DNA from: a virus
Lineage: Duplodnaviria > Caudoviricetes
Reading direction: 5' to 3' (one strand)
Virus record (IMG/VR): IMGVR_UViG_3300036985_002500
Location: 1-56,845 of that record
DNA length: 56,845 nt
Shown here piece after piece: positions 3,867-31,490 of the stretch. The notes beneath the pieces were generated by a model. The model saw nothing but the letters and a program-made list of their open reading frames with translations. It did no database searches and was not told where the DNA came from. How positions within the stretch are numbered: position 1 is the stretch's first letter; each line of letters opens with the position of its first letter. The position numbers and the translations under genes are program-made.

Positions 3867-4880
3867 ATGAATTTAAAAGATTTATCAAGACCATTGGATA
3901 TTTCCGATGTAGATTTTCGTGTACAATCCATAAACAATGGTGGATATGCAACAATCCTAGCGTACAAGGATGCTAGAGTAGATATGAATAGGCTAGATGA
4001 GGTATGCGGAATTGGATACTGGAAGAAAGACTATCGCTCAATAGACGGAAGACTATATTGTGGGGTAGCAATTTACAATGATGTTATCTCTGAGTGGATA
4101 TGGAAATGGGATGTTGGTACAGAATCAATGACCGAGAAGGAGAAAGGTATGGCATCCGATGCATTTAAGCGTGCTTGTTTCAATATTGGAATTGGTCGTG
4201 AACTTTATGACTACCCAATCATTAGCGTAAAACTAAATGATAACGAGTATACTAAGGATGGTGGTAGACCTAAGCAAACATTCAATCTAAAGATAAGAGA
4301 TTGGAGATGGTATTCAGAATTTACAGATGGAAGACTATCGTTTATTGCTGCTAAAGATGAATCAGGTAAGCTTAGATTTAAGTGGGGTGAAATGAAACCT
4401 AAAGTTGAAGAGCCAACATTTAAGCAGGCTGCAGCATCTCCAGTAACAGAAGTTGAAGTAATATCCGTAGAGCCAATAGCTGTAGCGACTGAAAGCGAAG
4501 AGGCTGATGTGTCAGGATTCTTAAAGAAACCAATAGATGCAGATCCGAATAGAGAGATTTTATCTATGGAGTATAAGGCTATATATGGAAAACTTCCTCA
4601 TGGAAAGATGTCTTCAGAAAGAATATCAGAAGAGATTAAGAAATCAATTAATCTTATAGAAGATGAAGAGAAGAATGTTCCAGAAGCCGAAATGGAGGCT
4701 AATGGTAATGCTTATTCTTTGTTAGTAGAAGAGGCAAGAACTTATAAGAGTCCTGGTGATTTTGTTGGATGGGCTAAGGGTATAGCTGCAGAACTAATAG
4801 AAAATAATGAAGATACTGCTCTTATAGATAGCTTCAAGGCATTTTGTAATACTTACTACGCTGAATTAACTGAGAAGTAA
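3867..4880 (+). CDS. Rad52/Sak-like single-strand annealing protein
   Basis: LAYKDARVDMNRLDEVCG and SDAFKRACFNIGIGRELY motifs, acidic C-terminal tail. Confidence 0.85.
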   Translation: MNLKDLSRPLDISDVDFRVQSINNGGYATILAYKDARVDMNRLDEVCGIGYWKKDYRSIDGRLYCGVAIYNDVISEWIWKWDVGTESMTEKEKGMASDAFKRACFNIGIGRELYDYPIISVKLNDNEYTKDGGRPKQTFNLKIRDWRWYSEFTDGRLSFIAAKDESGKLRFKWGEMKPKVEEPTFKQAAASPVTEVEVISVEPIAVATESEEADVSGFLKKPIDADPNREILSMEYKAIYGKLPHGKMSSERISEEIKKSINLIEDEEKNVPEAEMEANGNAYSLLVEEARTYKSPGDFVGWAKGIAAELIENNEDTALIDSFKAFCNTYYAELTEK

Positions 4881-6389: not shown

Positions 6390-7790
6390 ATGAGTGACAT
6401 TAAGATGCGTTCTGAACAGCTAGTAATAAACGCAATACTCACAGATCCATCTTGTATACATAACATAATGTCGAAGGTATCCTATGATATGTTCCATGTT
6501 CCTGTTCATAAATTGATGTTTGAAACAATAACTAACATCTATCTAAAGCAAGAGCCTATAAATCTTATTACAGTATTTACTTCTTTAAATAAAAGCAGTT
6601 CAATTAATAAATCAGAATCATTAAATGAGCTAACTCGCATACAATCAATGTTTAACTTCACCGATAAACTTGAGGTTGGTGATGCTATGAATTTATTAAT
6701 ATCGGAATCTATAAGGCATGAACATATAGATTTTGCTACTAAGGTTGGTAAGATATCTAATTCAGATAGCTATGATCCATCTACGGTGATAGATTTAATG
6801 CAGTCTCATATACTAGATAATAAACTAAAATCAATTCTAAACAAAAAAGATTTTACGAATGAAGATTTATTAGATGAGTTAGATAAGAAGATGCTTGAGG
6901 CCTCTGAGAACAAGGGTATAAGCGGAATAAAGACTGGATATGAAAGATATGACAAGGTAACAAGTGGCATGCAGCCAACTAACTTTATAATTATAGCTGC
7001 AAGGCCTGCGATGGGTAAGACTCAATATGCTCTTGGAATAATGAGAAACGCTAGCGTGAATGATAATAAGAAAGGTTTATTTATATCGTGTGAAATGGAT
7101 GAGGTTCAAGTAATGAAAAGAATCATAGCGGTAGATAGCGGAATACCTGGATATTCATTTAAGCGTGGTAATTTAACACCAAGCGAGAGGCATAGATACG
7201 AATACTCTAGGAAAAGAATAATTGATTCTAAGCTAAAGATTGTTGCTGGCTCATTTACTATTTCAGATGTATTATCATTGGTTTATAAAATGAAGAACTC
7301 AGAAGGACTTGACTATGTTGTTATAGACTACATACAAAAGATAACATCTCCTGGCACTCAGAATAGAACGAATGAAGTAGGTGATGTATCTAGGAAGCTT
7401 AAGGACATGGCAAATGATTTAAAGATTCCCGTCATAGCATTGGCACAATTATCAAGGGCGGTAGAACATCGTGTCGATAAAAAGCCTATGCTTAGTGACT
7501 TGAGAGAGTCAGGTGATATTGAACAAGACGCAGACATAGTTATGTTCCTCTACAGATCTGGCTATTACATGACTCCTGAAGAGAAGATGAGCAATCCACT
7601 AGCTGAAGATGGTTATGCTATAATAGCTAAACATCGTGATGGAGATTTAGAAGACATACAACTGAAGTTTGATTCAAATATCCCAGCATGGAAGAATCCA
7701 TTTCAGAAAGATGATTACATAAAAGAGTACGTACAAACTAAGATTGAGCCAAATACTGATTTTGATTATCAGGGATCTCAACCATTTTAA
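6390..7790 (+). CDS. dnaB: Replicative DNA helicase DnaB
   Basis: AARPAMGKT (Walker A), VIDYIQ, LAQLSR, LSDLRESGDIEQDAD, IAKHRDG. Confidence 0.95.
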   Translation: MSDIKMRSEQLVINAILTDPSCIHNIMSKVSYDMFHVPVHKLMFETITNIYLKQEPINLITVFTSLNKSSSINKSESLNELTRIQSMFNFTDKLEVGDAMNLLISESIRHEHIDFATKVGKISNSDSYDPSTVIDLMQSHILDNKLKSILNKKDFTNEDLLDELDKKMLEASENKGISGIKTGYERYDKVTSGMQPTNFIIIAARPAMGKTQYALGIMRNASVNDNKKGLFISCEMDEVQVMKRIIAVDSGIPGYSFKRGNLTPSERHRYEYSRKRIIDSKLKIVAGSFTISDVLSLVYKMKNSEGLDYVVIDYIQKITSPGTQNRTNEVGDVSRKLKDMANDLKIPVIALAQLSRAVEHRVDKKPMLSDLRESGDIEQDADIVMFLYRSGYYMTPEEKMSNPLAEDGYAIIAKHRDGDLEDIQLKFDSNIPAWKNPFQKDDYIKEYVQTKIEPNTDFDYQGSQPF

Positions 7791-10352: not shown

Positions 10353-10949
10353 ATGGAAAAACAATTATTACAAGTCTTAGAGTTTCAAAAGGCATTCAAT
10401 GTAGAAATTCCTACTACTCCTAAGATGTTAAGAAAGACCAGAGCTAAACTTAGACAATCCTTATTGGAAGAAGAAGTTAAAGAGTTGCTTGAGGCAAAGA
10501 ATATTATAGACGTAGCTGATGCTATAGTAGATATTCTTTACATAACTTATGGAACGGCTCATGAGTACGGTATCGCTGATAGATTAATTCTTCTATTCGA
10601 TGAGATTCATAAGTCAAACATGACTAAGGTTGGCCCTGATGGGAAAGCATTATTCAGAAGAGATGGTAAAGTATTAAAGCCAGAGACTTATACAGAGCCA
10701 AACTTAAGACCTATTCTTGAGCGTGACTTTTCAATATACAAGTCAAGTGATTTAGCTAAGGAACTTGCTGAAATAGAATCTAATATTGTAAATGGAATTA
10801 TTCATAATACAATAAAAAAGAATCTATCATTTTTTGACAGAATATTATTCTCTATTTATAATAAGTTAGAATCTATTCTTGAGAAGAAAGTTCAAGTTGA
10901 ATTTCCAAAGGTAATTGTGTACGGAAAAGAACATGTTATCAAAGGGTAG
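10353..10949 (+). CDS. MazG-like (all-alpha) NTP pyrophosphohydrolase
   Basis: LLEEEVKEL, DAIVDILYITYG, EIHKSNMTK, DGKVLKP motifs. Confidence 0.85.
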   Translation: MEKQLLQVLEFQKAFNVEIPTTPKMLRKTRAKLRQSLLEEEVKELLEAKNIIDVADAIVDILYITYGTAHEYGIADRLILLFDEIHKSNMTKVGPDGKALFRRDGKVLKPETYTEPNLRPILERDFSIYKSSDLAKELAEIESNIVNGIIHNTIKKNLSFFDRILFSIYNKLESILEKKVQVEFPKVIVYGKEHVIKG

Positions 10950-11328
10950 GAAATATGGCAATAAAAAAATAGAGCATGATGGAGTTAAATTTGACTCCAA
11001 GCTTGAGTTCTATTGCTATAATTTATTGAATTCCCTTGAGTTTAAATTTGAATTTCAACAAAAGTTAGTTCTTATTGACAAGTTCAAATACAATACAGAG
11101 TCTATTAGAGCCATAACGATGATAATAGACTTCGTATTATCTCATGGAGATACAATTATATACATTGATACAAAAGGATTCGCTACAGAGGTATCTAAAA
11201 TAAAGTATAAGATGCTAAAGAATCATTTAAAGAATGAAATTAACACAAGAGTTATATGGCTTCACTCACAAAAAGAAGTCAATGAATTTTTAAACAATCT
11301 AAAAAACAATAAAGATGTCAACAATTAA
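10915..11328 (+). CDS. DUF1064-like PD-(D/E)XK endonuclease
   Basis: KYGNKK..DGVKFDSKLE, IDF, IDTKGF. Confidence 0.8.
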   Translation: MCTEKNMLSKGRKYGNKKIEHDGVKFDSKLEFYCYNLLNSLEFKFEFQQKLVLIDKFKYNTESIRAITMIIDFVLSHGDTIIYIDTKGFATEVSKIKYKMLKNHLKNEINTRVIWLHSQKEVNEFLNNLKNNKDVNN

Positions 11329-11710
11329 CAAAGTAATTCTATTAGGTAACGTAGGTTCAGTAGATGTAAAAGAATTTGATGGTGGTAAAAAGCTAGTTCA
11401 AGTATCATTAGCAACTTCTGAAAGTTATAAAAAAGGAGATGAGTACGTAAACAAGACAGAGTGGCATAGATGTATATTCGCTATACCTAATTTGGCTGAT
11501 AGAGCTGTAAATATTAAGAAGGGTGATAAGATATATGTAGAAGGAAGTGTATCAACAAACTCTTGGACTTCAAAAGAAGGAGAAAAGAAAGAGAATAAAG
11601 AGATTTCTTGCATTATGTTTAAGACTTTTCAGAAAGCTGATTCATCAAAAGAAGATTTGTCTAATGCATCTATTCCTCAAGGATCTTTAGTAGATGATAT
11701 TATATTTTAA
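11315..11710 (+). CDS. ssb: Single-stranded DNA-binding protein
   Basis: INKVILLGNVG, SLATSE, TEWHR, KGDKIYVEG and an acidic/aromatic C-terminus. Confidence 0.92.
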   Translation: MSTINKVILLGNVGSVDVKEFDGGKKLVQVSLATSESYKKGDEYVNKTEWHRCIFAIPNLADRAVNIKKGDKIYVEGSVSTNSWTSKEGEKKENKEISCIMFKTFQKADSSKEDLSNASIPQGSLVDDIIF

Positions 11711-11804
11711 AATAAGTTACACTAAGCAGGTTACTGTAAACAAAACTACGGCTGCATTGAGTTGTGGCTGTATATTTGTCCAGTTTTTTTTATAATAAAC
11801 GGGA

Positions 11805-11937
11805 CATAACATTTTGTAGATAAGCGAAGGCAAAGATTTATAAACAAAAATTTTAACTTAAAAACAAATATAATTATGAAAACGAAAACATCAATTTACC
11901 ACCGCACCTTTGCTTTTGCTTATGCGCTGTTAGTAGC
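11805..11937 (+). mobile_element. attC-like site 1 (long loop containing the ORF start)
   Basis: CATAAC(11805)...ATAAGCGAAGGCAAAG(11820-35)...CTTTGCTTTTGCTTAT(11908-23)...GTTAGTAGC(11929-37). Confidence 0.6.
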
Positions 11938-12145
11938 TGTTATTTTTTGCGGTTGTGAGCCGATAAATAATGAGCAACAAAAGAAAGTAGAAGCAACAGA
12001 ATTAAACGATTATTCTGTAAGCAATGAAGGTGTACAAATATTAACTATTGATAGTTGCGAATATGTTTGGTGTAAAAATGGTCATGGTGCAGGATTAACA
12101 CATAAGGGGAACTGTAAATTTTGTGCAGAACGTAGCAAGAAATAA
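11876..12145 (+). CDS. Predicted lipoprotein with Cys/His-rich C-terminus, on the cassette
   Basis: Basic N-terminus, hydrophobic stretch, lipobox-like FCGC; IDSCEY...THKGNCKFC. Confidence 0.8.
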   Translation: MKTKTSIYHRTFAFAYALLVAVIFCGCEPINNEQQKKVEATELNDYSVSNEGVQILTIDSCEYVWCKNGHGAGLTHKGNCKFCAERSKK

Positions 12146-12147
12146 TT

Positions 12148-12200
12148 GCTACTAACATCCGTATAGGCGCACGTTTCAATGGCGTTTATACCTTGTTATG
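12148..12200 (+). mobile_element. attC-like site 2
   Basis: GCTACTAAC-ATCC-GTATAGGCGC-loop-GCGTTTATAC-CTT-GTTATG, immediately after the stop codon. Confidence 0.65.
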
Positions 12201-12256
12201 AAAATTATAATCCGCCAAAATCATAATTATTTTATAATTTTGGCACAGTATAAAAT

Positions 12257-12329
12257 AGTGAGGTGGCGTAATGAGGCGAGGTTGCCAAGTCCTATATGGT
12301 TGCTTTACGGTTCGAGTCCGCCCTCACTA
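12257..12329 (+). tRNA. Degenerate tRNA-like element (anticodon not assignable)
   Basis: Acceptor AGTGAGG/CCTCACT, GGTTCGAGTCC T-loop, 73 nt; D and anticodon arms irregular. Confidence 0.5.
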
Positions 12330-12346
12330 CTAATTATTAATAATAA

Positions 12347-12453
12347 GACTAAGTAGCGTAAGTGGGAATGAATACCACCTTGGGTAACGTGTTTGCTAGA
12401 ATAGTATTCTTTAAATAGGCAGATAGATGAGAGTTCGAATCTCTCCTTAGTCA
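12347..12453 (+). tRNA. Expanded tRNA-like element (107 nt)
   Basis: Perfect GACTAAG/CTTAGTC acceptor and GAGAG-TTCGAAT-CTCTC T arm; enlarged D and anticodon loops. Confidence 0.6.
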
Positions 12454-12467
12454 CTAAATTTAAAATT

Positions 12468-12701
12468 ATGAATGAATACACATTGCAATTATCCGCAGAG
12501 GATATAGGAGAAATTATAACTATAATTAGAGTTCAACATCTTAAGATGCACGCTGAACCTTTCGCTAGAAAGATAGGTATAAAAGAAAAGTTGTTATTAA
12601 CTGTTGAAGAAGGAAGAGGCCCACATGGATTGCTAGTCCTTAAAAAGATTGATAGCGCATTTCATAACATAAAAGTATCTGTTAATATAGGTATATTATG
12701 A
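12468..12701 (+). CDS. XRE-family HTH regulator
   Basis: IGEII..IR...M..E.FARKIGI....L..VEEG pattern. Confidence 0.6.
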   Translation: MNEYTLQLSAEDIGEIITIIRVQHLKMHAEPFARKIGIKEKLLLTVEEGRGPHGLLVLKKIDSAFHNIKVSVNIGIL

Positions 12702-12729
12702 GATCAATAATAATGAAGAGACACGTATC

Positions 12730-12754
12730 CTTATTTAGAATGATTATAAATAAG
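12730..12754. promoter_or_regulatory. Palindromic operator (Fur-box-like)
   Basis: CTTATTTAGAAT-G-ATTATAAATAAG at the convergence of the two arms; same motif three times at 56.2-56.4 kb. Confidence 0.5.
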
Positions 12755-12816
12755 AGATATATCCGAAGAAATAATTTAAGTAAGAGAATAAATAATGAAG
12801 AAGGAGATTAATCTTT

Positions 12817-13101
12817 TTATTTAAAAAATTGATGCTTCTTATCTGCTCTATTCTTTGATTGAGATTGGCTTTTTGTATTTGTGCTGCTAGTATGAGCCAC
12901 ATCCATACCATCCTTATTGCCATGAGTTCCATTCTTTCTATTTATAGCTTGTAATATAGCACGATACTTTCTTCTCGCTGGAGTTGAGTGATACCTTTTA
13001 TTGTATACGTCTCTCTTCTTTGCTGCTTTAGGATTCTCGTGATAGTATTTAGCTGTCTTGCTTTGACCTTTCTGAGTTCCTGCTAGTGTATTTCTTGCCA
13101 T
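12817..13101 (-). CDS. Small basic protein, degenerate HNH-like
   Basis: DGMDVAH...SKNRA pattern. Confidence 0.6.
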   Translation of the reverse strand: MARNTLAGTQKGQSKTAKYYHENPKAAKKRDVYNKRYHSTPARRKYRAILQAINRKNGTHGNKDGMDVAHTSSTNTKSQSQSKNRADKKHQFFK

Positions 13102-28600: not shown

Positions 28601-31490
28601 CAATACCAGCTTTAGATACTGGCAACAAGAATCTACCTAATTTTGTAGTTGATAAAGTAGCATCATATATATTTTCAGCTTTATTTAGGGTAGTTAATAC
28701 CTTGCTAGTACCTTGAACTCCAACTAATAATTTCTCTAATCCAACTCCTAATTTTAAAATTCCAGGCCCTACCCCTCCAGTAAGCACAAGTGGAGTAATA
28801 ATACCAACTGTAGAACCGCCCATTTTACCAAGATTCTCACGACTCATAAAATCAACAGCAGCTCTTTCCTCCATTCTTTGAATTGTAGCCTTATCAACAT
28901 ATCCATCAGGATCAAATCCTTGATTAGTCAATTCAGAAATCATTGTATTATTCATCTCAGACTTAGCAAAATATCCATCTGCCTTAGCTGTTTTTGGAGT
29001 TAATGTTTGAGCAATACCATTCATAAATGACTCAAAAAATCCAGTTGACTCATTTGTAAACCCAGTATCATTATTATAATACAATGTAGACATTTGATTT
29101 AGAGTACCTACATTTTGAAGGTATGTCTTCTCTACGTCTGATAATTTATAAAATCCATCCCAGTCAAATAAATCTTTAAATCTTCTATTAACAGATTGAA
29201 AATATCCATCGTCTAGATTATTATCTTTTGCTAATTTATTATTATCTGCTTGTAGTTGCTCATAATAAAAATCAAATCTTTGCTTAGGAGTTATATCTGA
29301 AGGTATAGCATTAAATATATTTTCTGCCATTGGAGACATATTAGTAGATACTGCCTGAACCAATTTTTTAGGTTGAGTTAAAAATACAGTAGACTTAGAA
29401 ATTTCTTCATCCTCTATAATTATATCAATGTATTCTAACTTTTTTCTTTCCTTTAATAGTTGTCTATATAAATCCTGATACTCTGGTCTTGATGAATCAC
29501 CTCCAAATACAGCTAATGATTTTTCTAATTTTTCTATATTAAATTGAGTATTTTCTTTATTAGATTTTTGCTGAATTATTCTATCGTTTGTAGCTGAGTA
29601 TCTTTCATTGTTAAATTTATCATAAGCCTCATTCATTGAAGACAATTTAGACTCTATGTAATTTCTTTCTTTTGAATTTAATGATGGAGAGTATATATAT
29701 CCACCATTCTTAGTGTCGGCCCTCATGTTCCCATTCTCAATATTCTCTAGCACAAAGTCAGACATTTTTGATGTTATCTCAAACAACTCTCTTGCATTTA
29801 TCTGAATATTTGAATCATCTTTTAAATCAAAGTGTTCTAAATATGTTTTCTTTTTATTATCTAGAGACATTCTAGCTAAACTCTTTCCTTGCTGAACACC
29901 TTCATTTACTTTTACGTTAAATGCCTTAGATGCATTAAAGAATTCTTCTGCATCTTTCAATGATTCAGCAATTACAGATGCTTTAGCTACATCGTATTTT
30001 CCGTCTCCTATTATTTTCTTTATCTCTTGTTGCTTTTGGATTATACCATCTTTTTGTTCTTGGGATAATTTATCTCCCATTAACATATTTACATCCTTGT
30101 TAATGAACTCATTAGCATCTTCAAATGCTTTATCGTATAAATCAACTTTATTTAATGCATCTGAATTTAAAAGTCTATTAGTCTCATCAACCATGTTAGC
30201 ATATCCAGTGCCGAAAGCTTTTATGTTTAATTTCTGTCCGTCAGTTCTTAATGTAGCTATCTCGCTAACCTTTGGTGTTCTATATGCATACTTTTCTAGC
30301 TTTTCTATTCTTTGATTTACATCTCCTTCAGTTAATGGTTGATATTTACCATTTACAGATCCTGCTTTATACCAATTATTACCTGACTTTTTGAAGCTAG
30401 CATCGCTATCAGGAAGTGAATAAATACCATCAGGTTTCCCTTTATAATCTACTAGATTAGCTACTTCTCTTGGTAAAGACTTTTGTATTTCAGCTTTTTT
30501 CTCATCGTAATTAAAATTTAAAGTTCCATCCTGATTATATCTTTCAGTTTCAGAACCTATATTTTTTCTTATTAATGTATTAAACGCTATATTATCTGCT
30601 ACCATTGGGCTTCCAGATGCAGTTAAAACAGAATTAGCATTAAAGTCAGTTATATTACCAAATCTTTCTGATATATTTTTATCAGTATTAATTGATGCTT
30701 TTGACTTAACATCTTTCCCATCTCCAACTTGTTTAGCATCTCTTTCTAATAATGCTATTCTTCTAGCTGCATCTTTTTCTATAGGAAGGAAATTTCCAGA
30801 ACTATCGTAATCTTTAAGCCACTTATCTTTACCTACTTTTTTATACATAGCATCTGGCTGACCAGCGTATACATAAGTTCCATTAGGTTTTTCTTTATCG
30901 TCTTTGTTTACCTTTCGTACAACTCCATCGCTATCTACCTTAATACCAGAAGCTTTATAAGTTGTATTGATTTTATCTAACTCAACTTTCTTGTCTTGCT
31001 CAGGACTCCCGATAGATAGTCCATCTTCTGTAATGAGAGACATTGGCTCTTCATTAATTACTTCTTCAGTTTTAGTTTCTACTGGTTGAACTATTGGATT
31101 TGGATCTTCACTAATATATAAACCATCCTCTGTGTATGAGCCTTGAGGCTTAATAGCACTTTCTCTAGGTTGGTCAACGAACATTTCTTCATTGAATCCT
31201 TGCAGATTTACTGGTGTTAAATTTAACTCAGAATATAATCTGTCTTCACTTGATTGTTCTGCTTGAATTTCAGGCTGAATAACCTCTTCTTGAATTGGAG
31301 CTGTAGGAATATCTTGTGTAGGAACAATAGCTTCAGGCTGTGCACTTGGTTGTACACTAGCCTGAACTTGTTGTTTTGGAAGTTTTATATTGAATTGTTC
31401 TGCTGTAACTTCTGATTCTGGAGAAGATTGTATAGTTTCGCCAAATCCACCAGTTTGAGTAGACATTAAGTCTTTAGAGCTTGTAGCCAT
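22698..31490 (-). CDS. Giant ejection/polyvalent virion protein (GNAT and ART-like domains)
   Basis: 2930 aa, largely helical; RGKGIG...FYEKNGF (GNAT); H..GF..GVYFS..E.IV (ART-like); TATATTTG at 31506-13. Confidence 0.8.
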   Translation of the reverse strand: MATSSKDLMSTQTGGFGETIQSSPESEVTAEQFNIKLPKQQVQASVQPSAQPEAIVPTQDIPTAPIQEEVIQPEIQAEQSSEDRLYSELNLTPVNLQGFNEEMFVDQPRESAIKPQGSYTEDGLYISEDPNPIVQPVETKTEEVINEEPMSLITEDGLSIGSPEQDKKVELDKINTTYKASGIKVDSDGVVRKVNKDDKEKPNGTYVYAGQPDAMYKKVGKDKWLKDYDSSGNFLPIEKDAARRIALLERDAKQVGDGKDVKSKASINTDKNISERFGNITDFNANSVLTASGSPMVADNIAFNTLIRKNIGSETERYNQDGTLNFNYDEKKAEIQKSLPREVANLVDYKGKPDGIYSLPDSDASFKKSGNNWYKAGSVNGKYQPLTEGDVNQRIEKLEKYAYRTPKVSEIATLRTDGQKLNIKAFGTGYANMVDETNRLLNSDALNKVDLYDKAFEDANEFINKDVNMLMGDKLSQEQKDGIIQKQQEIKKIIGDGKYDVAKASVIAESLKDAEEFFNASKAFNVKVNEGVQQGKSLARMSLDNKKKTYLEHFDLKDDSNIQINARELFEITSKMSDFVLENIENGNMRADTKNGGYIYSPSLNSKERNYIESKLSSMNEAYDKFNNERYSATNDRIIQQKSNKENTQFNIEKLEKSLAVFGGDSSRPEYQDLYRQLLKERKKLEYIDIIIEDEEISKSTVFLTQPKKLVQAVSTNMSPMAENIFNAIPSDITPKQRFDFYYEQLQADNNKLAKDNNLDDGYFQSVNRRFKDLFDWDGFYKLSDVEKTYLQNVGTLNQMSTLYYNNDTGFTNESTGFFESFMNGIAQTLTPKTAKADGYFAKSEMNNTMISELTNQGFDPDGYVDKATIQRMEERAAVDFMSRENLGKMGGSTVGIITPLVLTGGVGPGILKLGVGLEKLLVGVQGTSKVLTTLNKAENIYDATLSTTKLGRFLLPVSKAGIEQGIKFEIGGSVVGSTEGELNWFNGLAGGILSESLTGIMAGAPKTEAYKWVKSIFGNKTSDAIDIMKSAGKISARGVAEIGDETGSQLASIYSQTDNFQEMMSAIEEQYGSIDKVEEFLLSTFVMGSAFGIVSPTSSKDAYFALPDDKKARLDKILAQIGADVASAERSVSEYAEYVKTKEGKKEAIDKLEDKSVVNDQENETGVSGEVAKGKEPIKTEPIVGAGKEEVSPSGVVQEEPTEVDTKKVDIEQRRQDEITALEAKYKIDRSKEPVVGAYGVVEVESESFKAARDKINAKYDAELAAVKPVVATEEAPMAEAVAKTPEENYATAQEVNNKIAEENPDASVLLTPKGDDLNLTAVYVGKENRGKGIGTKVLETVKSEADRTGKKIVLDTTNELDSDTNLERLGNFYEKNGFKKVGENKFEYNPQAVVTEEVAAPTQEEIDSTAKALESATYDSVKFEDAGDGKFVITGGDLKIKEIAKQSDKKESVKLPSKISFLPKIINLVHLSRNSKDKKSILKNGFNPKETSIDSPIPGVYFSSEDWSTMDRFGRDSGDKIYTSIENDGLIYFDNTDDFTNYLKENNLPYRGETLSDAQLQVLKDKGVKAILLREDFASRSRNELIVIDDSIIKSVSENETEITKLPESFNNKKSIAEAYHKAKANGSSPELVKAVEDLLSKAPESSTEKAAPKEKAESWQDRIDRPMTNEELNAFRTSIRNKFPDSYASEILDLVAEARKGEVNNLPYELDNLADEITINDIGNLLSEDDLFDSRRELNAYLRDRSNAGDMLNITKESKEESKIEEKFESLGDRIRAGKISGTGMAMSAIPGFKEAFNGSLEIVATAVDAGVSIAKAITEGFKKIKESQWYKDLGKEQRTQAFEDYKKGMNEKFPKKRISKAERDAAKEFKAKVDEATGTAKEEPTVSMTNSQVLREQLKNKEAGAKDAVKFIQGMKEQIRAYAKENLPKELYSKAQTDLLMKSISKAETAKALDTAITRIDKMIENKAEAKRILTAKNIVKKIKNKREFLTKVNDKWKGKTTVESQREFKEFINSGALDDLELKTQEELDAIMKIIEDIIDTGKADFKTFNNAKEDTKKVENATLLKGLAKTPDVILNTREEIIEFLENGGAVIIQGRLYKKADMAAFKPPSAKNKNTSTVGLPDSYFSNVEGYEAENIAFTREAVRRRDAKVFRRVARALNPLNAMSDIYSLLKGTWAKSDAVKKYVTDNIERPLIKAMHDILHGQAVKIREYYAGFNEIFGSKRKGISRLSDTISDKDNPVNNKLREFYQITNSHMVNYYNLLRVENGPKRLAKSGVDVLALEKYMDANQDLKDYADFLMQKYEDSKVDYEPIYEAANNMPFPEKLYYPEYASNFDEDFIDIDSVLNEDGTINAMSAVTNNLKQRTRFNDQYDLNMNAHNVYLNYIKNMEHSRNLFEIAKKTNQLFSTTNAPYLITNMGLDKYNELREHMAVILSNSTPKTGTTTYSKGISQLLNFSVLSTLGFKPASIAKQFTSFTHYWTAGIADGVDPWQIWGGTVPTNKEEWDFVKSLWNSDYRKDRMRGGSIDVETKKVIDAALKSKTAKGWIIANQAAMSPIIVGDMLAVAYGPGGGSAFALATYRQRLSEGMSKEEAADYAYRRWVEETEKTQQSTRVDLTSNIQRDPLWRMAGTYRTGQASMAKKVINAVKLLNSGTTLTTREKVQAITDIVYYSAFGSVLFSVVASGAVGAMMSSDDDEDKRIRHDIVWDQIGSDLQGYGAIGHLGDWTLNAMRGDIWKNNIPVVNFVQKLATLPAIVPAASYRKFEDLSKEDQLEFASEAGAVDIFGNVGGEYINQFDPEVVAKLFEEYNNQIFWNKLTDAEARDISKAIGFKNIDDLISNMTQYIKGDKGLNDALMNYEEDYFQMSKERNKVDYLYKIFSGGEDYIIDEEQGYKINEVKLPTKPAKVIEAYPTGEKQKVYKTYN

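What the first reader, a model, noticed from the sequence alone, without database searches (positions are those of the whole stretch)
11805..12200. Integron-like gene cassette bounded by two attC-like hairpins, with no integrase in the window
Seen: two imperfect hairpins each run from ...TAAC to GTT.... The end of site 1 (GTTAGTAGC, 11929-37) is the exact reverse complement of the start of site 2 (GCTACTAAC, 12148-56). The start of site 1 (CATAAC) is the reverse complement of the end of site 2 (GTTATG). Known: swapped R''/R' complementarity is what G|TT recombination of an integron cassette leaves behind. Inference: a 266-bp circle (11930-12195) was inserted into a resident phage attC-like site, perhaps by a host or trans-acting IntI-like recombinase, giving a phage-borne cassette system. 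Caveat: all four stem mismatches are G:T on the top strand, the opposite bias to canonical attC, and the spacers are non-canonical, so the mechanism may differ.
Basis: partly seen in the sequence, partly recalled or inferred. Interest (0 to 1): 0.88.

Follow-up and report, generated by a model that had tools for sequence, protein, structure and literature searches.

The report
Stranded phage integron-like gene cassette
A small lipoprotein gene in this phage sits between two folding DNA hairpins that, in many related phages, mark swappable gene units lined up beside a small recombinase gene, so it is a lone, recombinase-less member of a phage gene-shuffling system resembling bacterial integrons.

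Summary
In the window alone they barely exceed chance. Comparison makes them real. The hairpin ahead of the ORF recurs, bounded by TAAC and G|TTA, in 18 viral contigs and 5 Bacteroidota MAG contigs. Six unrelated gene bodies are joined to it at the same G|TTA, and each ends in the reverse complement of its own start plus C. Related contigs hold arrays of up to about 14 such units. In 4 of 4 recombinase-bearing contigs the array ends at a 267-271 aa XerA-like tyrosine recombinase gene. The window has no recombinase.

Its specific 266-bp circle is not: relatives share hairpin plus downstream gene, hairpin alone or body alone, but never body plus downstream hairpin (0 of 207). The likelier unit is 11810-12155.

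Polaribacter phage P12002L, a published phage CALIN (PMC9892861), uses the same grammar. This scan has already noted the system on other DNA.

The parts
11805..11810 (+). Left core CATAAC (TAAC at 11807-11810). Similarity to other contigs that carry the leader hairpin begins here.
   Evidence: Read. Left ends of shared segments fall at TAAC in 110 of 207 cases, against a 6% background. Contigs of 4 of 4 runs leave the window at 11807, 11808 or 11811.
11807..11932 (+). Site 1, the 'leader' hairpin. It runs TAAC - 9 nt - 5' arm 11820-11835 - 72-nt loop holding the ATG (11876) and 10 further codons - 3' arm 11908-11923 (codons for T-FAFAY) - GCGCTG - TTA.
   Evidence: The same site is present in 18 viral contigs and 5 Bacteroidota MAG contigs. 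In an alignment of 11 variants there are 23 pairs, 11 of them with compensatory changes.
11876..12145 (+). ORF of 89 aa, a small lipoprotein. Its signal peptide ends in the lipobox FCGC, and it has a Cys-rich C-terminal domain (DSCEY...HKGNCKFC). Codons 1-18 lie in the hairpin; codon 19 (TTA, 11930) starts exactly at G|TTA.
   Evidence: 80 related loci were kept. Invariant residues are C27, C61, Y63, H76, K77, N79, C80, K81 and C83. It matches phrog_19356, function unknown. AF2 model pLDDT 76.5. No PDB fold match at E <= 0.001.
11930..11950 (+). Left terminal inverted repeat of the gene body (TTAGTAGCTGTTATTTTTTGC), coding for LVAVIFC.
   Evidence: Inverted repeat I1. It is conserved at DNA level in about 25 loci. 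A depth spike in run X1 (166 against about 13) shows it is shared by many other contigs.
12135..12156 (+). Right terminal inverted repeat of the body plus C (GCAAGAAATAATTGCTACTAA|C). It covers the last codons, the stop and the R''-like core.
   Evidence: Sequences of different loci are identical up to TAAC and unrelated after it. Depth spike of 205 in X1.
11810..12155 (+). Favoured mobile unit (346 bp): the hairpin with its downstream gene, from TAA|C to TAA|C.
   Evidence: This is inference. It rests on whole units of this kind shared between contigs (L006/L009 347 nt at 94.5%; L049/L120 308 nt; L089/L117 373 nt), and on array ends at the recombinase gene.
12153..12199 (+). Site 2, a short hairpin: TAACA - TCC - stem 12161-12170 / 12182-12191 - CT - TGTTA(T). 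Probably the head of the next unit, or the resident site.
   Evidence: In run X2 contigs enter at 12153 and leave at 12199. It is not terminator-like in the scan.
11806..12203 (+). Whole module (398 nt) that differs from the relative L127. L127 shares both flanks and the tRNA-Arg gene but holds an 87-aa ORF here.
   Evidence: Joint 11807->12207 in run X2.

Best explanation
The stretch is a lone unit of a hairpin-bounded gene-cassette system shared by phages of Bacteroidota-type hosts.

Anatomy. Each unit has two parts:
- A 'connector': an imperfect hairpin that reads C...G and is closed by TAAC/GTTA.
- A 'body' that starts TTA..., ends ...TAA, and carries terminal inverted repeats.
In a circle, the body's two ends would pair and extend the TAAC/GTTA box, as in an integron attC site.

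Arrays and enzyme. In related phages, rows of up to about 14 units run in one direction. They end at an AT-rich docking motif directly ahead of a small (267-271 aa) XerA/IntI-like tyrosine recombinase gene.

Proposed mechanism. The recombinase acts on the folded gene-sense strand and cuts at TAA|C. This moves hairpin-plus-gene units. Exchange on the other side of the hairpin (G|TTA) also happens over evolutionary time.

Gene heads. Here, as in many units, the hairpin is also the head of the gene. Its loop carries the start codon. Its 3' arm encodes the first half of a lipoprotein signal peptide, which is joined in frame at G|TTA to a body that supplies the lipobox and the mature protein.

This phage. 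The record has no recombinase gene, so the unit is stranded. Any further movement would need an enzyme from a co-infecting phage or from the host.

Shown: the anatomy, the recurrence, the break points, the covariation, the strand bias and the recombinase linkage.
Inferred: that this recombinase does the job, which strand and bond it cuts, and how the module entered this locus.
For: 1. The leader hairpin is conserved from TAAC to G|TTA with unrelated left flanks in 18 viral contigs and 5 MAG contigs.
2. Of 29 distinct leader junctions, 22 have the reverse complement of the body's first 7-10 nt plus C downstream. Six distinct end types occur: TTAGTAGC, TTAGCAGTT, TTATGC, TTATGCC, TTATAAGC (an N6_N4 methylase) and TTAGCGGTA.
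3. 19 of 80 ORF homologues carry the exact signature at their stop, against 0 of 80 in a control displaced by 300 nt.
4. Body-type pairs number 326 in 701,574 nt, against 64-114 in 5 shuffles. They chain into arrays (L088 about 14, L032 9, L035 9, L013/L048 8).
5. There are 69 distinct connectors flanked by such bodies on both sides. Their DNA folds have mean z -3.7 (55 of 69 below -2). The top strand folds better in 59, the bottom in 9, with 1 tie (Wilcoxon p 1.3e-10).
6. The leader stem has 11 of 23 pairs with compensatory change.
7. PF00589 is found in 4 of 36 records. In all 4 it lies 0.1-0.8 kb downstream of the array on the same strand. After the last TAAC comes a shared motif (ATAAATATATAA, GTAAATATATAA, TATATTATATAT or TATCATATATAA).
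8. Environmental contigs break at 11807-11811, 12153 and 12199.
9. Polaribacter phage P12002L has the same grammar. According to PMC9892861 (section 3.4, read), one of its two tested attC sites was recombined by IntI1.
Against: - In the window alone the hairpins and repeats are not significant.
- No recombinase is in the window, and none is in any of the 5 cassette-bearing records rated at least 90% complete. The enzyme is therefore often absent, and the link to it is by adjacency only.
- At this locus the relatives show replacement or absence of the whole module between conserved flanks (L127; X2 joint 11789->12214; L001-L003). They do not show a clean empty site, which ordinary phage mosaic recombination could also produce.
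- The sense-strand folding bias would equally arise from selection on the mRNA.
- Break points occur on both sides of the hairpin, which a single-strand, single-cut integron mechanism does not predict.
- The 69 connectors include near-duplicates (about 10 variants of the leader), so they are not all independent.
- The official attC models could not be run.
Confidence: 0.78

Rival explanations
1. This is an ordinary integron component: a CALIN whose attC sites came from, and are serviced by, bacterial IntI integrases of the host. It would match the interpretation given to phage CALINs by Qi et al. 2023.
For: - The TAAC/GTTA cores and the swapped complementarity are those of attC cassettes.
- P12002L shares the grammar, and one of its sites was recombined by IntI1 in E. 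coli (PMC9892861 section 3.4).
- 5 Bacteroidota MAG contigs hold the leader.
Against: - The only recombinase found beside these arrays is 267-271 aa. It scores 148-168 bits on TIGR02249 against a cut-off of 265, matched in two stretches. It is nearer to archaeal XerA (4a8e, E 3.7e-40) than to IntI4 (2a3v, E 1.7e-27).
- The genes point towards the recombinase gene, not away from it.
- The sense strand folds better.
- I did not search host genomes for IntI.
Confidence: 0.1
2. This is a 'moron': an accessory gene with its own expression signals. The hairpins would be RNA elements (a 5' leader structure and a 3' stabiliser or terminator), and the gene would be moved between phages by homologous or illegitimate recombination only.
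For: - Only the sense strand folds better than shuffles as RNA.
- All the wobbles are G:U on the sense strand.
- The module is swapped for an unrelated ORF between conserved flanks in L127.
- No recombinase is in the window.
Against: - Shared segments end at TAAC in 110 of 207 cases, against a 6% background.
- Unrelated bodies carry matched terminal inverted repeats.
- Arrays end at a recombinase gene in 4 of 4 cases.
- Site 2 has no T tail and is not picked by the terminator scan.
The RNA role and the DNA role are not exclusive.
Confidence: 0.08
3. The hairpins are ends of a single-strand transposon of the IS200/IS605 (HUH) kind, or its non-autonomous derivatives, inserting next to a TAAC-like tetranucleotide.
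For: Subterminal imperfect hairpins and a fixed tetranucleotide at the boundary resemble that family. This resemblance is recalled, not tested.
Against: - There is no Y1 transposase in the window.
- The arrays are linked to a tyrosine recombinase.
- The inverted-repeat complementarity of body ends fits attC logic, not IS608 logic.
Confidence: 0.02
4. It is a chance resemblance in AT-rich intergenic DNA.
For: Searches show that the window alone is near chance level.
Against: All the comparative results argue against it.
Confidence: 0.02

Closest known systems
Integrons (IntI, attI, attC-bounded cassettes), especially sedentary chromosomal arrays with uniform attC sites
   Same: - Folded imperfect-palindrome sites closed by AAC/GTT cores.
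- Each cassette start is complementary to its own far core.
- One-directional arrays abut a Xer-related tyrosine recombinase gene through a distinct docking site.
- The cargo is small accessory genes, including DNA methylases.
   Different: - The recombinase is about 50 residues shorter and below the IntI cut-offs.
- The genes are co-directional with the recombinase gene, so the hairpin precedes its gene.
- The sense strand folds better.
- Both sides of the hairpin are break points.
- Hairpin loops carry start codons and N-termini.
- The carriers are phages.
CALINs in virulent phages (Qi et al. 2023, PMC9892861), in particular Polaribacter phage P12002L
   Same: attC-like sites without an integrase in a lytic-type phage of a Flavobacteriia host. 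P12002L shows the same grammar: TAAC-hairpin-GTTA on the gene-sense strand, a methylase body with TTAGGCAC/GTGCCTAAC ends, the loop motif TCGTTTTAATG, and TTGCTACTAAC after gp55.
   Different: The paper treats these sites as bacterial integron parts carried by phages. In the parts I read (abstract, section 3.4, and passages found by term search) it does not describe a phage recombinase, gene heads inside hairpins, or long phage arrays. Its supplementary tables, which list the 17 CALIN phages, were not available to me.
Translation starts supplied by attI1 (ORF-11 and related) to start-less cassettes in class 1 integrons
   Same: A recombination site supplies the start codon and first residues to whatever cassette is joined at G|TT.
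   Different: Recalled from memory, not checked here. In this system the donor is an exchangeable attC-like hairpin at every position of an array, and it supplies half of a signal peptide in a fixed frame.
XerA/dif of archaea and Xer-exploiting elements such as CTX phage
   Same: The nearest solved relatives of the array-linked recombinase are XerA proteins (4a8e, 5hxy). Use of a folded single strand by a Xer enzyme is known for CTX phage (recalled).
   Different: No dif-like 28-bp site was looked for. The function here is cassette shuffling, not dimer resolution or whole-phage integration.

Membership tests
Integron | IntI-type integrase (a tyrosine recombinase with the IntI-specific extra segment) next to the array | tested here: not met
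   No PF00589 in the window. Related arrays have 267-271 aa proteins. On TIGR02249 they score 147.5-167.8 bits against a cut-off of 265, in two stretches. The best family is XerA_Arch at 172-207 bits against a cut-off of 220. The nearest solved structure is XerA.
Integron | attC sites: an imperfect palindrome with R''(...AAC) and R'(GTT...) cores, roughly 55-140 nt long | tested here: met
   Cores and stems confirmed. Among 69 related sites of 40-152 nt the folds have mean z -3.7. Covariation in the leader is shown.
Integron | Recognition by the curated attC covariance model (IntegronFinder / HattCI) | not testable with these tools
   The model is not in Rfam. The Rfam scan of 11000-13000 returned nothing relevant.
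Integron | The cassette's first bases after G|TT are complementary to its own R'' core | tested here: met
   In the window it is 9 nt, extending to 20 of 23. It holds for 22 of 29 leader junctions with six end types, and for 19 of 80 homologue loci against 0 of 80 in the control.
Integron | Cassette genes read away from intI, with the attC 3' of its gene and the bottom strand recombined | tested here: not met
   The genes read towards the recombinase gene in 4 of 4 arrays. No shared unit is a body plus downstream hairpin (0 of 207). The sense strand folds better in 59 of 69 sites. Which strand is actually recombined could not be tested.
Integron | Site-specific recombination demonstrated | not testable with these tools
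   The evidence here is indirect only: break points at the cores. For P12002L, IntI1 activity on one site is reported in PMC9892861.
CALIN (cluster of attC sites lacking an integrase) | At least two attC sites close together and no integron integrase nearby | tested here: inconclusive
   Two attC-like sites lie 220 nt apart with no recombinase in the record. The sites were not called by the official models, and the record is 84% complete.
IS200/IS605-type single-strand transposon | A Y1 (HUH) transposase, or ends matching a known family member | tested here: not met
   No PF01797 in the window. Other records were not searched.

The most novel reading that the evidence does not exclude
Phages of Bacteroidota run an integron-like system of their own. 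A small XerA-like recombinase shuffles two kinds of module at both sides of a folded hairpin: hairpin 'heads' and gene 'bodies'. The recombination site also serves as the start of the gene, holding the leader, the start codon and half of a signal peptide. One crossover can therefore build a new secreted lipoprotein from an exchangeable head and a start-less body. The window's gene is one such assembled product, left without its enzyme.
Probability: 0.45. Interest if true: 0.85.

Novelty: new variant of a known kind. Interest (0 to 1): 0.76.

Why it matters
Integrons are regarded as bacterial devices, and phage-borne attC sites have been read as borrowed bacterial parts. If phages have their own recombinase, docking site and long arrays, three things follow:
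- Phage accessory genes (methylases, surface lipoproteins, likely anti-defence genes) move by a dedicated site-specific route. That route works across unrelated phages, not only by mosaic homologous recombination.
- A recombination site that also supplies a gene's start and export signal would be a compact way of making modular proteins.
- It gives a defined sequence grammar for finding the variable, probably host-interaction, genes in uncultured phage genomes.

The system has cultured relatives (Polaribacter phage P12002L; recombinase relatives in Cellulophaga and Polaribacter phages), so it can be tested at the bench.

Tried and rejected
- DNA similarity search of 10900-13100 against the phage collection found no match. 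tblastn of the ORF against the same collection also found none.
- The Rfam scan at E <= 10 returned only chance-level hits.
- My naive TAAC...hairpin...GTTA scanner gave fewer hits than shuffles and was dropped.
- The MAFFT alignment of the window against L001 could not place the break points, because the intergenic DNA has diverged.
- The body-pair scan of the window found a second pair, 12196-12667. Its far end lies inside the conserved 77-aa gene, and 8 similar scattered pairs in the window are evidently chance, so I did not count it.
- Two metagenome scans found nothing: a 24-mer of the ORF's variable part, and the tRNA-promoter hairpin pattern.
- The structure of the lipoprotein gave no PDB fold match at E <= 0.001. 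The Atlas gave only viral hypothetical clusters and a weak DUF6440 lead at 0.88. Pfam gave only NVEALA at E 0.018, below its cut-off. The protein's function stays unknown; superinfection exclusion or surface modification is a guess.
- Of the 15 genome-contig hits to the 19-mer, 10 were chance matches in unrelated phyla and were dropped.
- The X5 joint 11811->12151 (side 21, 'between: not known') might be a swap of hairpin plus body ahead of an unchanged site 2. It is too weak to use.
- The parts of the stretch without contig cover in X2, X4 and X5 (about 11963-12115) say nothing by themselves.
Full report
**Context.** The window is a whole IMG/VR virus record of 56,845 bases, rated 84% complete, with 33% G+C. 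The finding lies between an SSB gene (11315-11710; PF00436) and a tRNA-Arg(CCT) gene (12256-12330). After these come a tRNA-like stretch, a conserved 77-aa gene (12468-12701) and a GH108 endolysin gene on the other strand. An 89-aa ORF (11876-12145) fills the finding. It has a lipoprotein signal peptide ending FCGC and a Cys-rich C-terminal part.

**Observation.** The stem of site 1 is 11820-11835 / 11908-11923. Its 72-nt loop holds the ORF's start codon. The 'swapped' complement between the end of site 1 and the start of site 2 runs on to 20 of 23 nt (11928-11950 / 12135-12157). Taken alone, none of this is convincing:
- The DNA folds are no better than shuffles.
- The 20-of-23 repeat is matched by 8 of 200 shuffles.
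- A simple TAAC-hairpin-GTTA scan finds fewer hits in the window than in shuffled copies.
- Only the + strand read as RNA folds better than shuffles (z -1.7 and -2.5).

**Relatives of the ORF.** A scan of viral contigs found 82 relatives, of which 80 loci were kept. The proteins share the N-terminus MKTKTSIYHRTFAFAYVLLVAVIFCGC and the C-terminus IDSCEY...HKGNCKFCAERSKK around an unalignable middle. In about 25 of these loci the DNA is nearly identical from a TAAC about 70 nt upstream of the ATG, through the hairpin, to ...GCTTATGTGCTG|TTAGTAGCTGTTATTTTTTGCGG. Left of the TAAC the flanks are unrelated. After the stop all of them read TAATTGCTACTAAC and then diverge completely, often into another hairpin that ends GTTAT. 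More distant family members sit in ordinary gene rows without such flanks.

**Other bodies at the same joint.** Searching for the hairpin's 5' arm found 18 viral contigs. It also found 15 genome contigs, of which 5 are genuine (Flavobacterium, Flavobacteriales, Bacteroidia and two Bacteroidales MAGs) and 10 are chance matches. Behind the same ...CTG|TTA joint lie at least six kinds of body:
- the lipoprotein family (TTAGTAGC);
- a variant of it (TTAGCAGTT, L045);
- a small membrane protein fused in frame (TTATGC; L049/L098, L120);
- a 303-nt unit with its own start (TTATGCC, L088);
- a 902-nt N6_N4 methylase unit (TTATAAGC, L104);
- another lipoprotein (TTAGCGGTA, L107).

Each ends in the reverse complement of its own first 7-10 letters followed by C (22 of 29 distinct junctions). 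Among the 80 homologue loci, 19 show the exact signature at the stop codon. With the target window displaced by 300 nt, none of 80 does.

**Arrays.** Pairs of the form G|TTA+5 ... complement+C number 326 in 701,574 nt of these loci (both strands), against 64-114 in five shuffles. They form chains spaced by 40-150 nt: about 14 in L088, 9 in L032, 9 in L035, 8 in L013/L048 and 7 in L036. The 69 distinct spacers flanked by such bodies on both sides ('connectors') cluster at 81-84 nt and 118-125 nt. They start CG(G/T)T and end (C/T)TG. As DNA they fold well below shuffles (mean z -3.7; 55 of 69 under -2). They fold better on the gene-sense strand in 59 cases, against 9 with one tie (p 1.3e-10). 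Several are near-duplicates, so this is not 69 independent trials. Typical folds show a 5-bp TAACG/TGTTA box, a 3-4 nt bulge on the 5' side only, and a 12-22 bp stem. Many of the long connectors hold an ATG in the loop. Eleven variants of the leader ahead of lipoprotein bodies give 23 consensus pairs, 11 of them with compensatory changes.

**Recombinase.**
- Where it is found. PF00589 is absent from the window. It is present in 1 of 5 and 3 of 30 other cassette-bearing records. It is in none of the 5 records rated at least 90% complete.
- Position. In all four positive records, a 267-271 aa gene lies directly downstream of the array on the same strand (L048, L035, L020; L088/L105).
- Docking motif. 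Between the last TAAC and its ATG is a shared AT-rich motif.
- Family. The proteins match XerA_Arch best (172-207 bits, cut-off 220). They match the integron-integrase model TIGR02249 only in two stretches (148-168 bits, cut-off 265). The nearest solved structures are archaeal XerA (E 3.7e-40), ahead of IntI4 (E 1.7e-27, two stretches).
- Geometry. Read on the opposite strand, the layout is that of an integron: recombinase gene, docking site, then GTT...AAC-hairpin units. The genes, however, point towards the recombinase.

**Which unit moves.** I compared all array loci with each other and took 207 distinct shared segments of 90-1500 nt.
- The left end falls at a TAAC in 110 of them (background 6%).
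- 24 are a hairpin alone (TAAC to GTTA). For example, a 90-nt connector is 98.9% identical in L048 and L049 between different bodies.
- One is a body alone (L007/L032, 742 nt).
- One by strict count, and three by eye, are a hairpin plus its downstream body (L006/L009, L049/L120, L089/L117).
- None is a body plus its downstream hairpin.

L013 and L048 share eight units and part company right after ...GCTACTAAC. The favoured unit here is 11810-12155 (346 bp), a complete gene with its own head. Site 2 would then be the head of a following unit, or the resident site. Its GTTATG matches the CATAAC left of site 1 either way. Because hairpins and bodies also reassort separately, both TAA|C and G|TTA behave as break points. 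A one-strand, one-cut mechanism does not explain that, and I leave it open.

**This locus in relatives.** Three relatives with the same neighbours lack the module. L001 (SSB 86% identical) has only tRNA-like genes there, and L002 and L003 have nothing. L127, a different phage, shares the left flank up to CGGGAC (11805), and the right flank from ATTATAATCC (12204) with the tRNA-Arg gene. It carries an unrelated 87-aa ORF instead of 11806-12203.

Contigs of four lake-water or sediment runs give the following. These are contigs, so they show presence, not frequency.
- Contigs leave the window at 11807, 11808 or 11811 in 4 of 4 runs.
- They enter at 12153 and leave at 12199 in X2.
- One X2 contig joins 11789 to 12214 with 14 other letters in between.
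- Depth in X1 rises from about 13 to 166-205 exactly over the cores and the body ends.

No clean empty site of either model was seen. How the module entered this locus is therefore unknown. Exchange between conserved flanks is as good an explanation for that one step as site-specific insertion.

**The protein.** The alignment of 41 family members keeps C27, C61, Y63, H76, K77, N79, C80, K81 and C83. The model (pLDDT 76.5, pTM 0.37) shows a signal helix, a loose linker, a three-stranded sheet and a short helix. Foldseek finds nothing in the PDB at E <= 0.001. The PHROG family has no known function.

**Literature and earlier notes.** Two full-text searches found one directly relevant paper: Qi et al. 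2023, PMC9892861. I read its abstract, section 3.4, and passages found by term search.
- It reports 17 CALINs in phages, among them Polaribacter phage P12002L with methylase cassettes.
- It reports IntI1-mediated recombination of five of six tested phage attC sites, one of them from P12002L.

I then read P12002L myself. Its methylase region has the same grammar, down to a loop motif and a TTGCTACTAAC core, and no integrase is annotated. The parts of the paper that I read do not mention a phage recombinase, hairpin-borne gene starts or long phage arrays. My two searches showed no paper describing those features, which is not proof that none exists.

This scan has noted the same system on other DNA several times. 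Those notes led me to look for the recombinase at array ends and for the reversed gene direction. I confirmed both here on my own loci.

**Verdict.** The window holds one stranded unit of a phage integron-like system that differs from classical integrons in enzyme, gene direction and the coding role of the site.

Noticed in passing
window 12347-12453; L001 4540-5230: Beside tRNA-Arg(CCT) there is a tRNA-like stretch that ARAGORN does not call and Rfam scores at only 15.9 bits (gathering score 29). L001 has several longer tRNA-like genes at the same place. The ARAGORN tRNA-Arg itself (12256-12330) did not appear in the Rfam list at E <= 10.
   Followed up: no
window 12205-12253; L001 4484-4535; L127 (reverse strand) 7019-7060: A hairpin containing a TAnnTTTG-like box directly ahead of the tRNA gene is conserved in three otherwise different phages. 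It is probably the tRNA promoter region.
   Followed up: partly
L035 4262-4290; L105 (reverse strand) about 1080-1110; L128 (P12002L) 29960-30090 and 30835-30980: The motif (A)TCGTTTTAATG(T) recurs in two settings. One is as the loop of short connectors. The other is as the whole content of 27-nt 'empty' bodies (TTATAGC...GCTATAA, TTATGGC...GCCATAA), one of them right next to a recombinase gene.
   Followed up: partly
window 11955-12132 and homologues L006-L032: The lipoprotein family has near-identical DNA at both ends and a wholly unalignable middle of about 30 codons. Environmental contigs join the two ends across other middles (joints 11955->12132 in X4 and X5, and 11957->12109 in X1). This suggests diversifying exchange inside the body as well.
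   Followed up: partly
L124 (Cellulophaga phage Ingeline_1) 3900-3958; L125 (Polaribacter phage Freya_10) 4085-4125: Both isolated phages have TTGTTGCTAACACCC..ATAAC just upstream of their small integrase genes (40% and 33% identical to the L048 recombinase). Freya genomes differ by up to 4 kb ahead of that gene. These may be cultured carriers of a related system.
   Followed up: no
L127 (reverse strand) 6680-7130 against window 11715-12330: A phage whose neighbouring genes look more G+C-rich and are unrelated shares about 90 nt of terminator region and the tRNA-Arg gene with the window. This is a sharp mosaic patch.
   Followed up: no
L021-L024, about 3960-4260: Here the lipoprotein body lacks the leader hairpin: similarity starts inside the leader's loop. 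In L021-L023 it ends ...GCTACTAA|A without the C. This is consistent with a cut exactly at TAA|C followed by joining to unrelated DNA.
   Followed up: no
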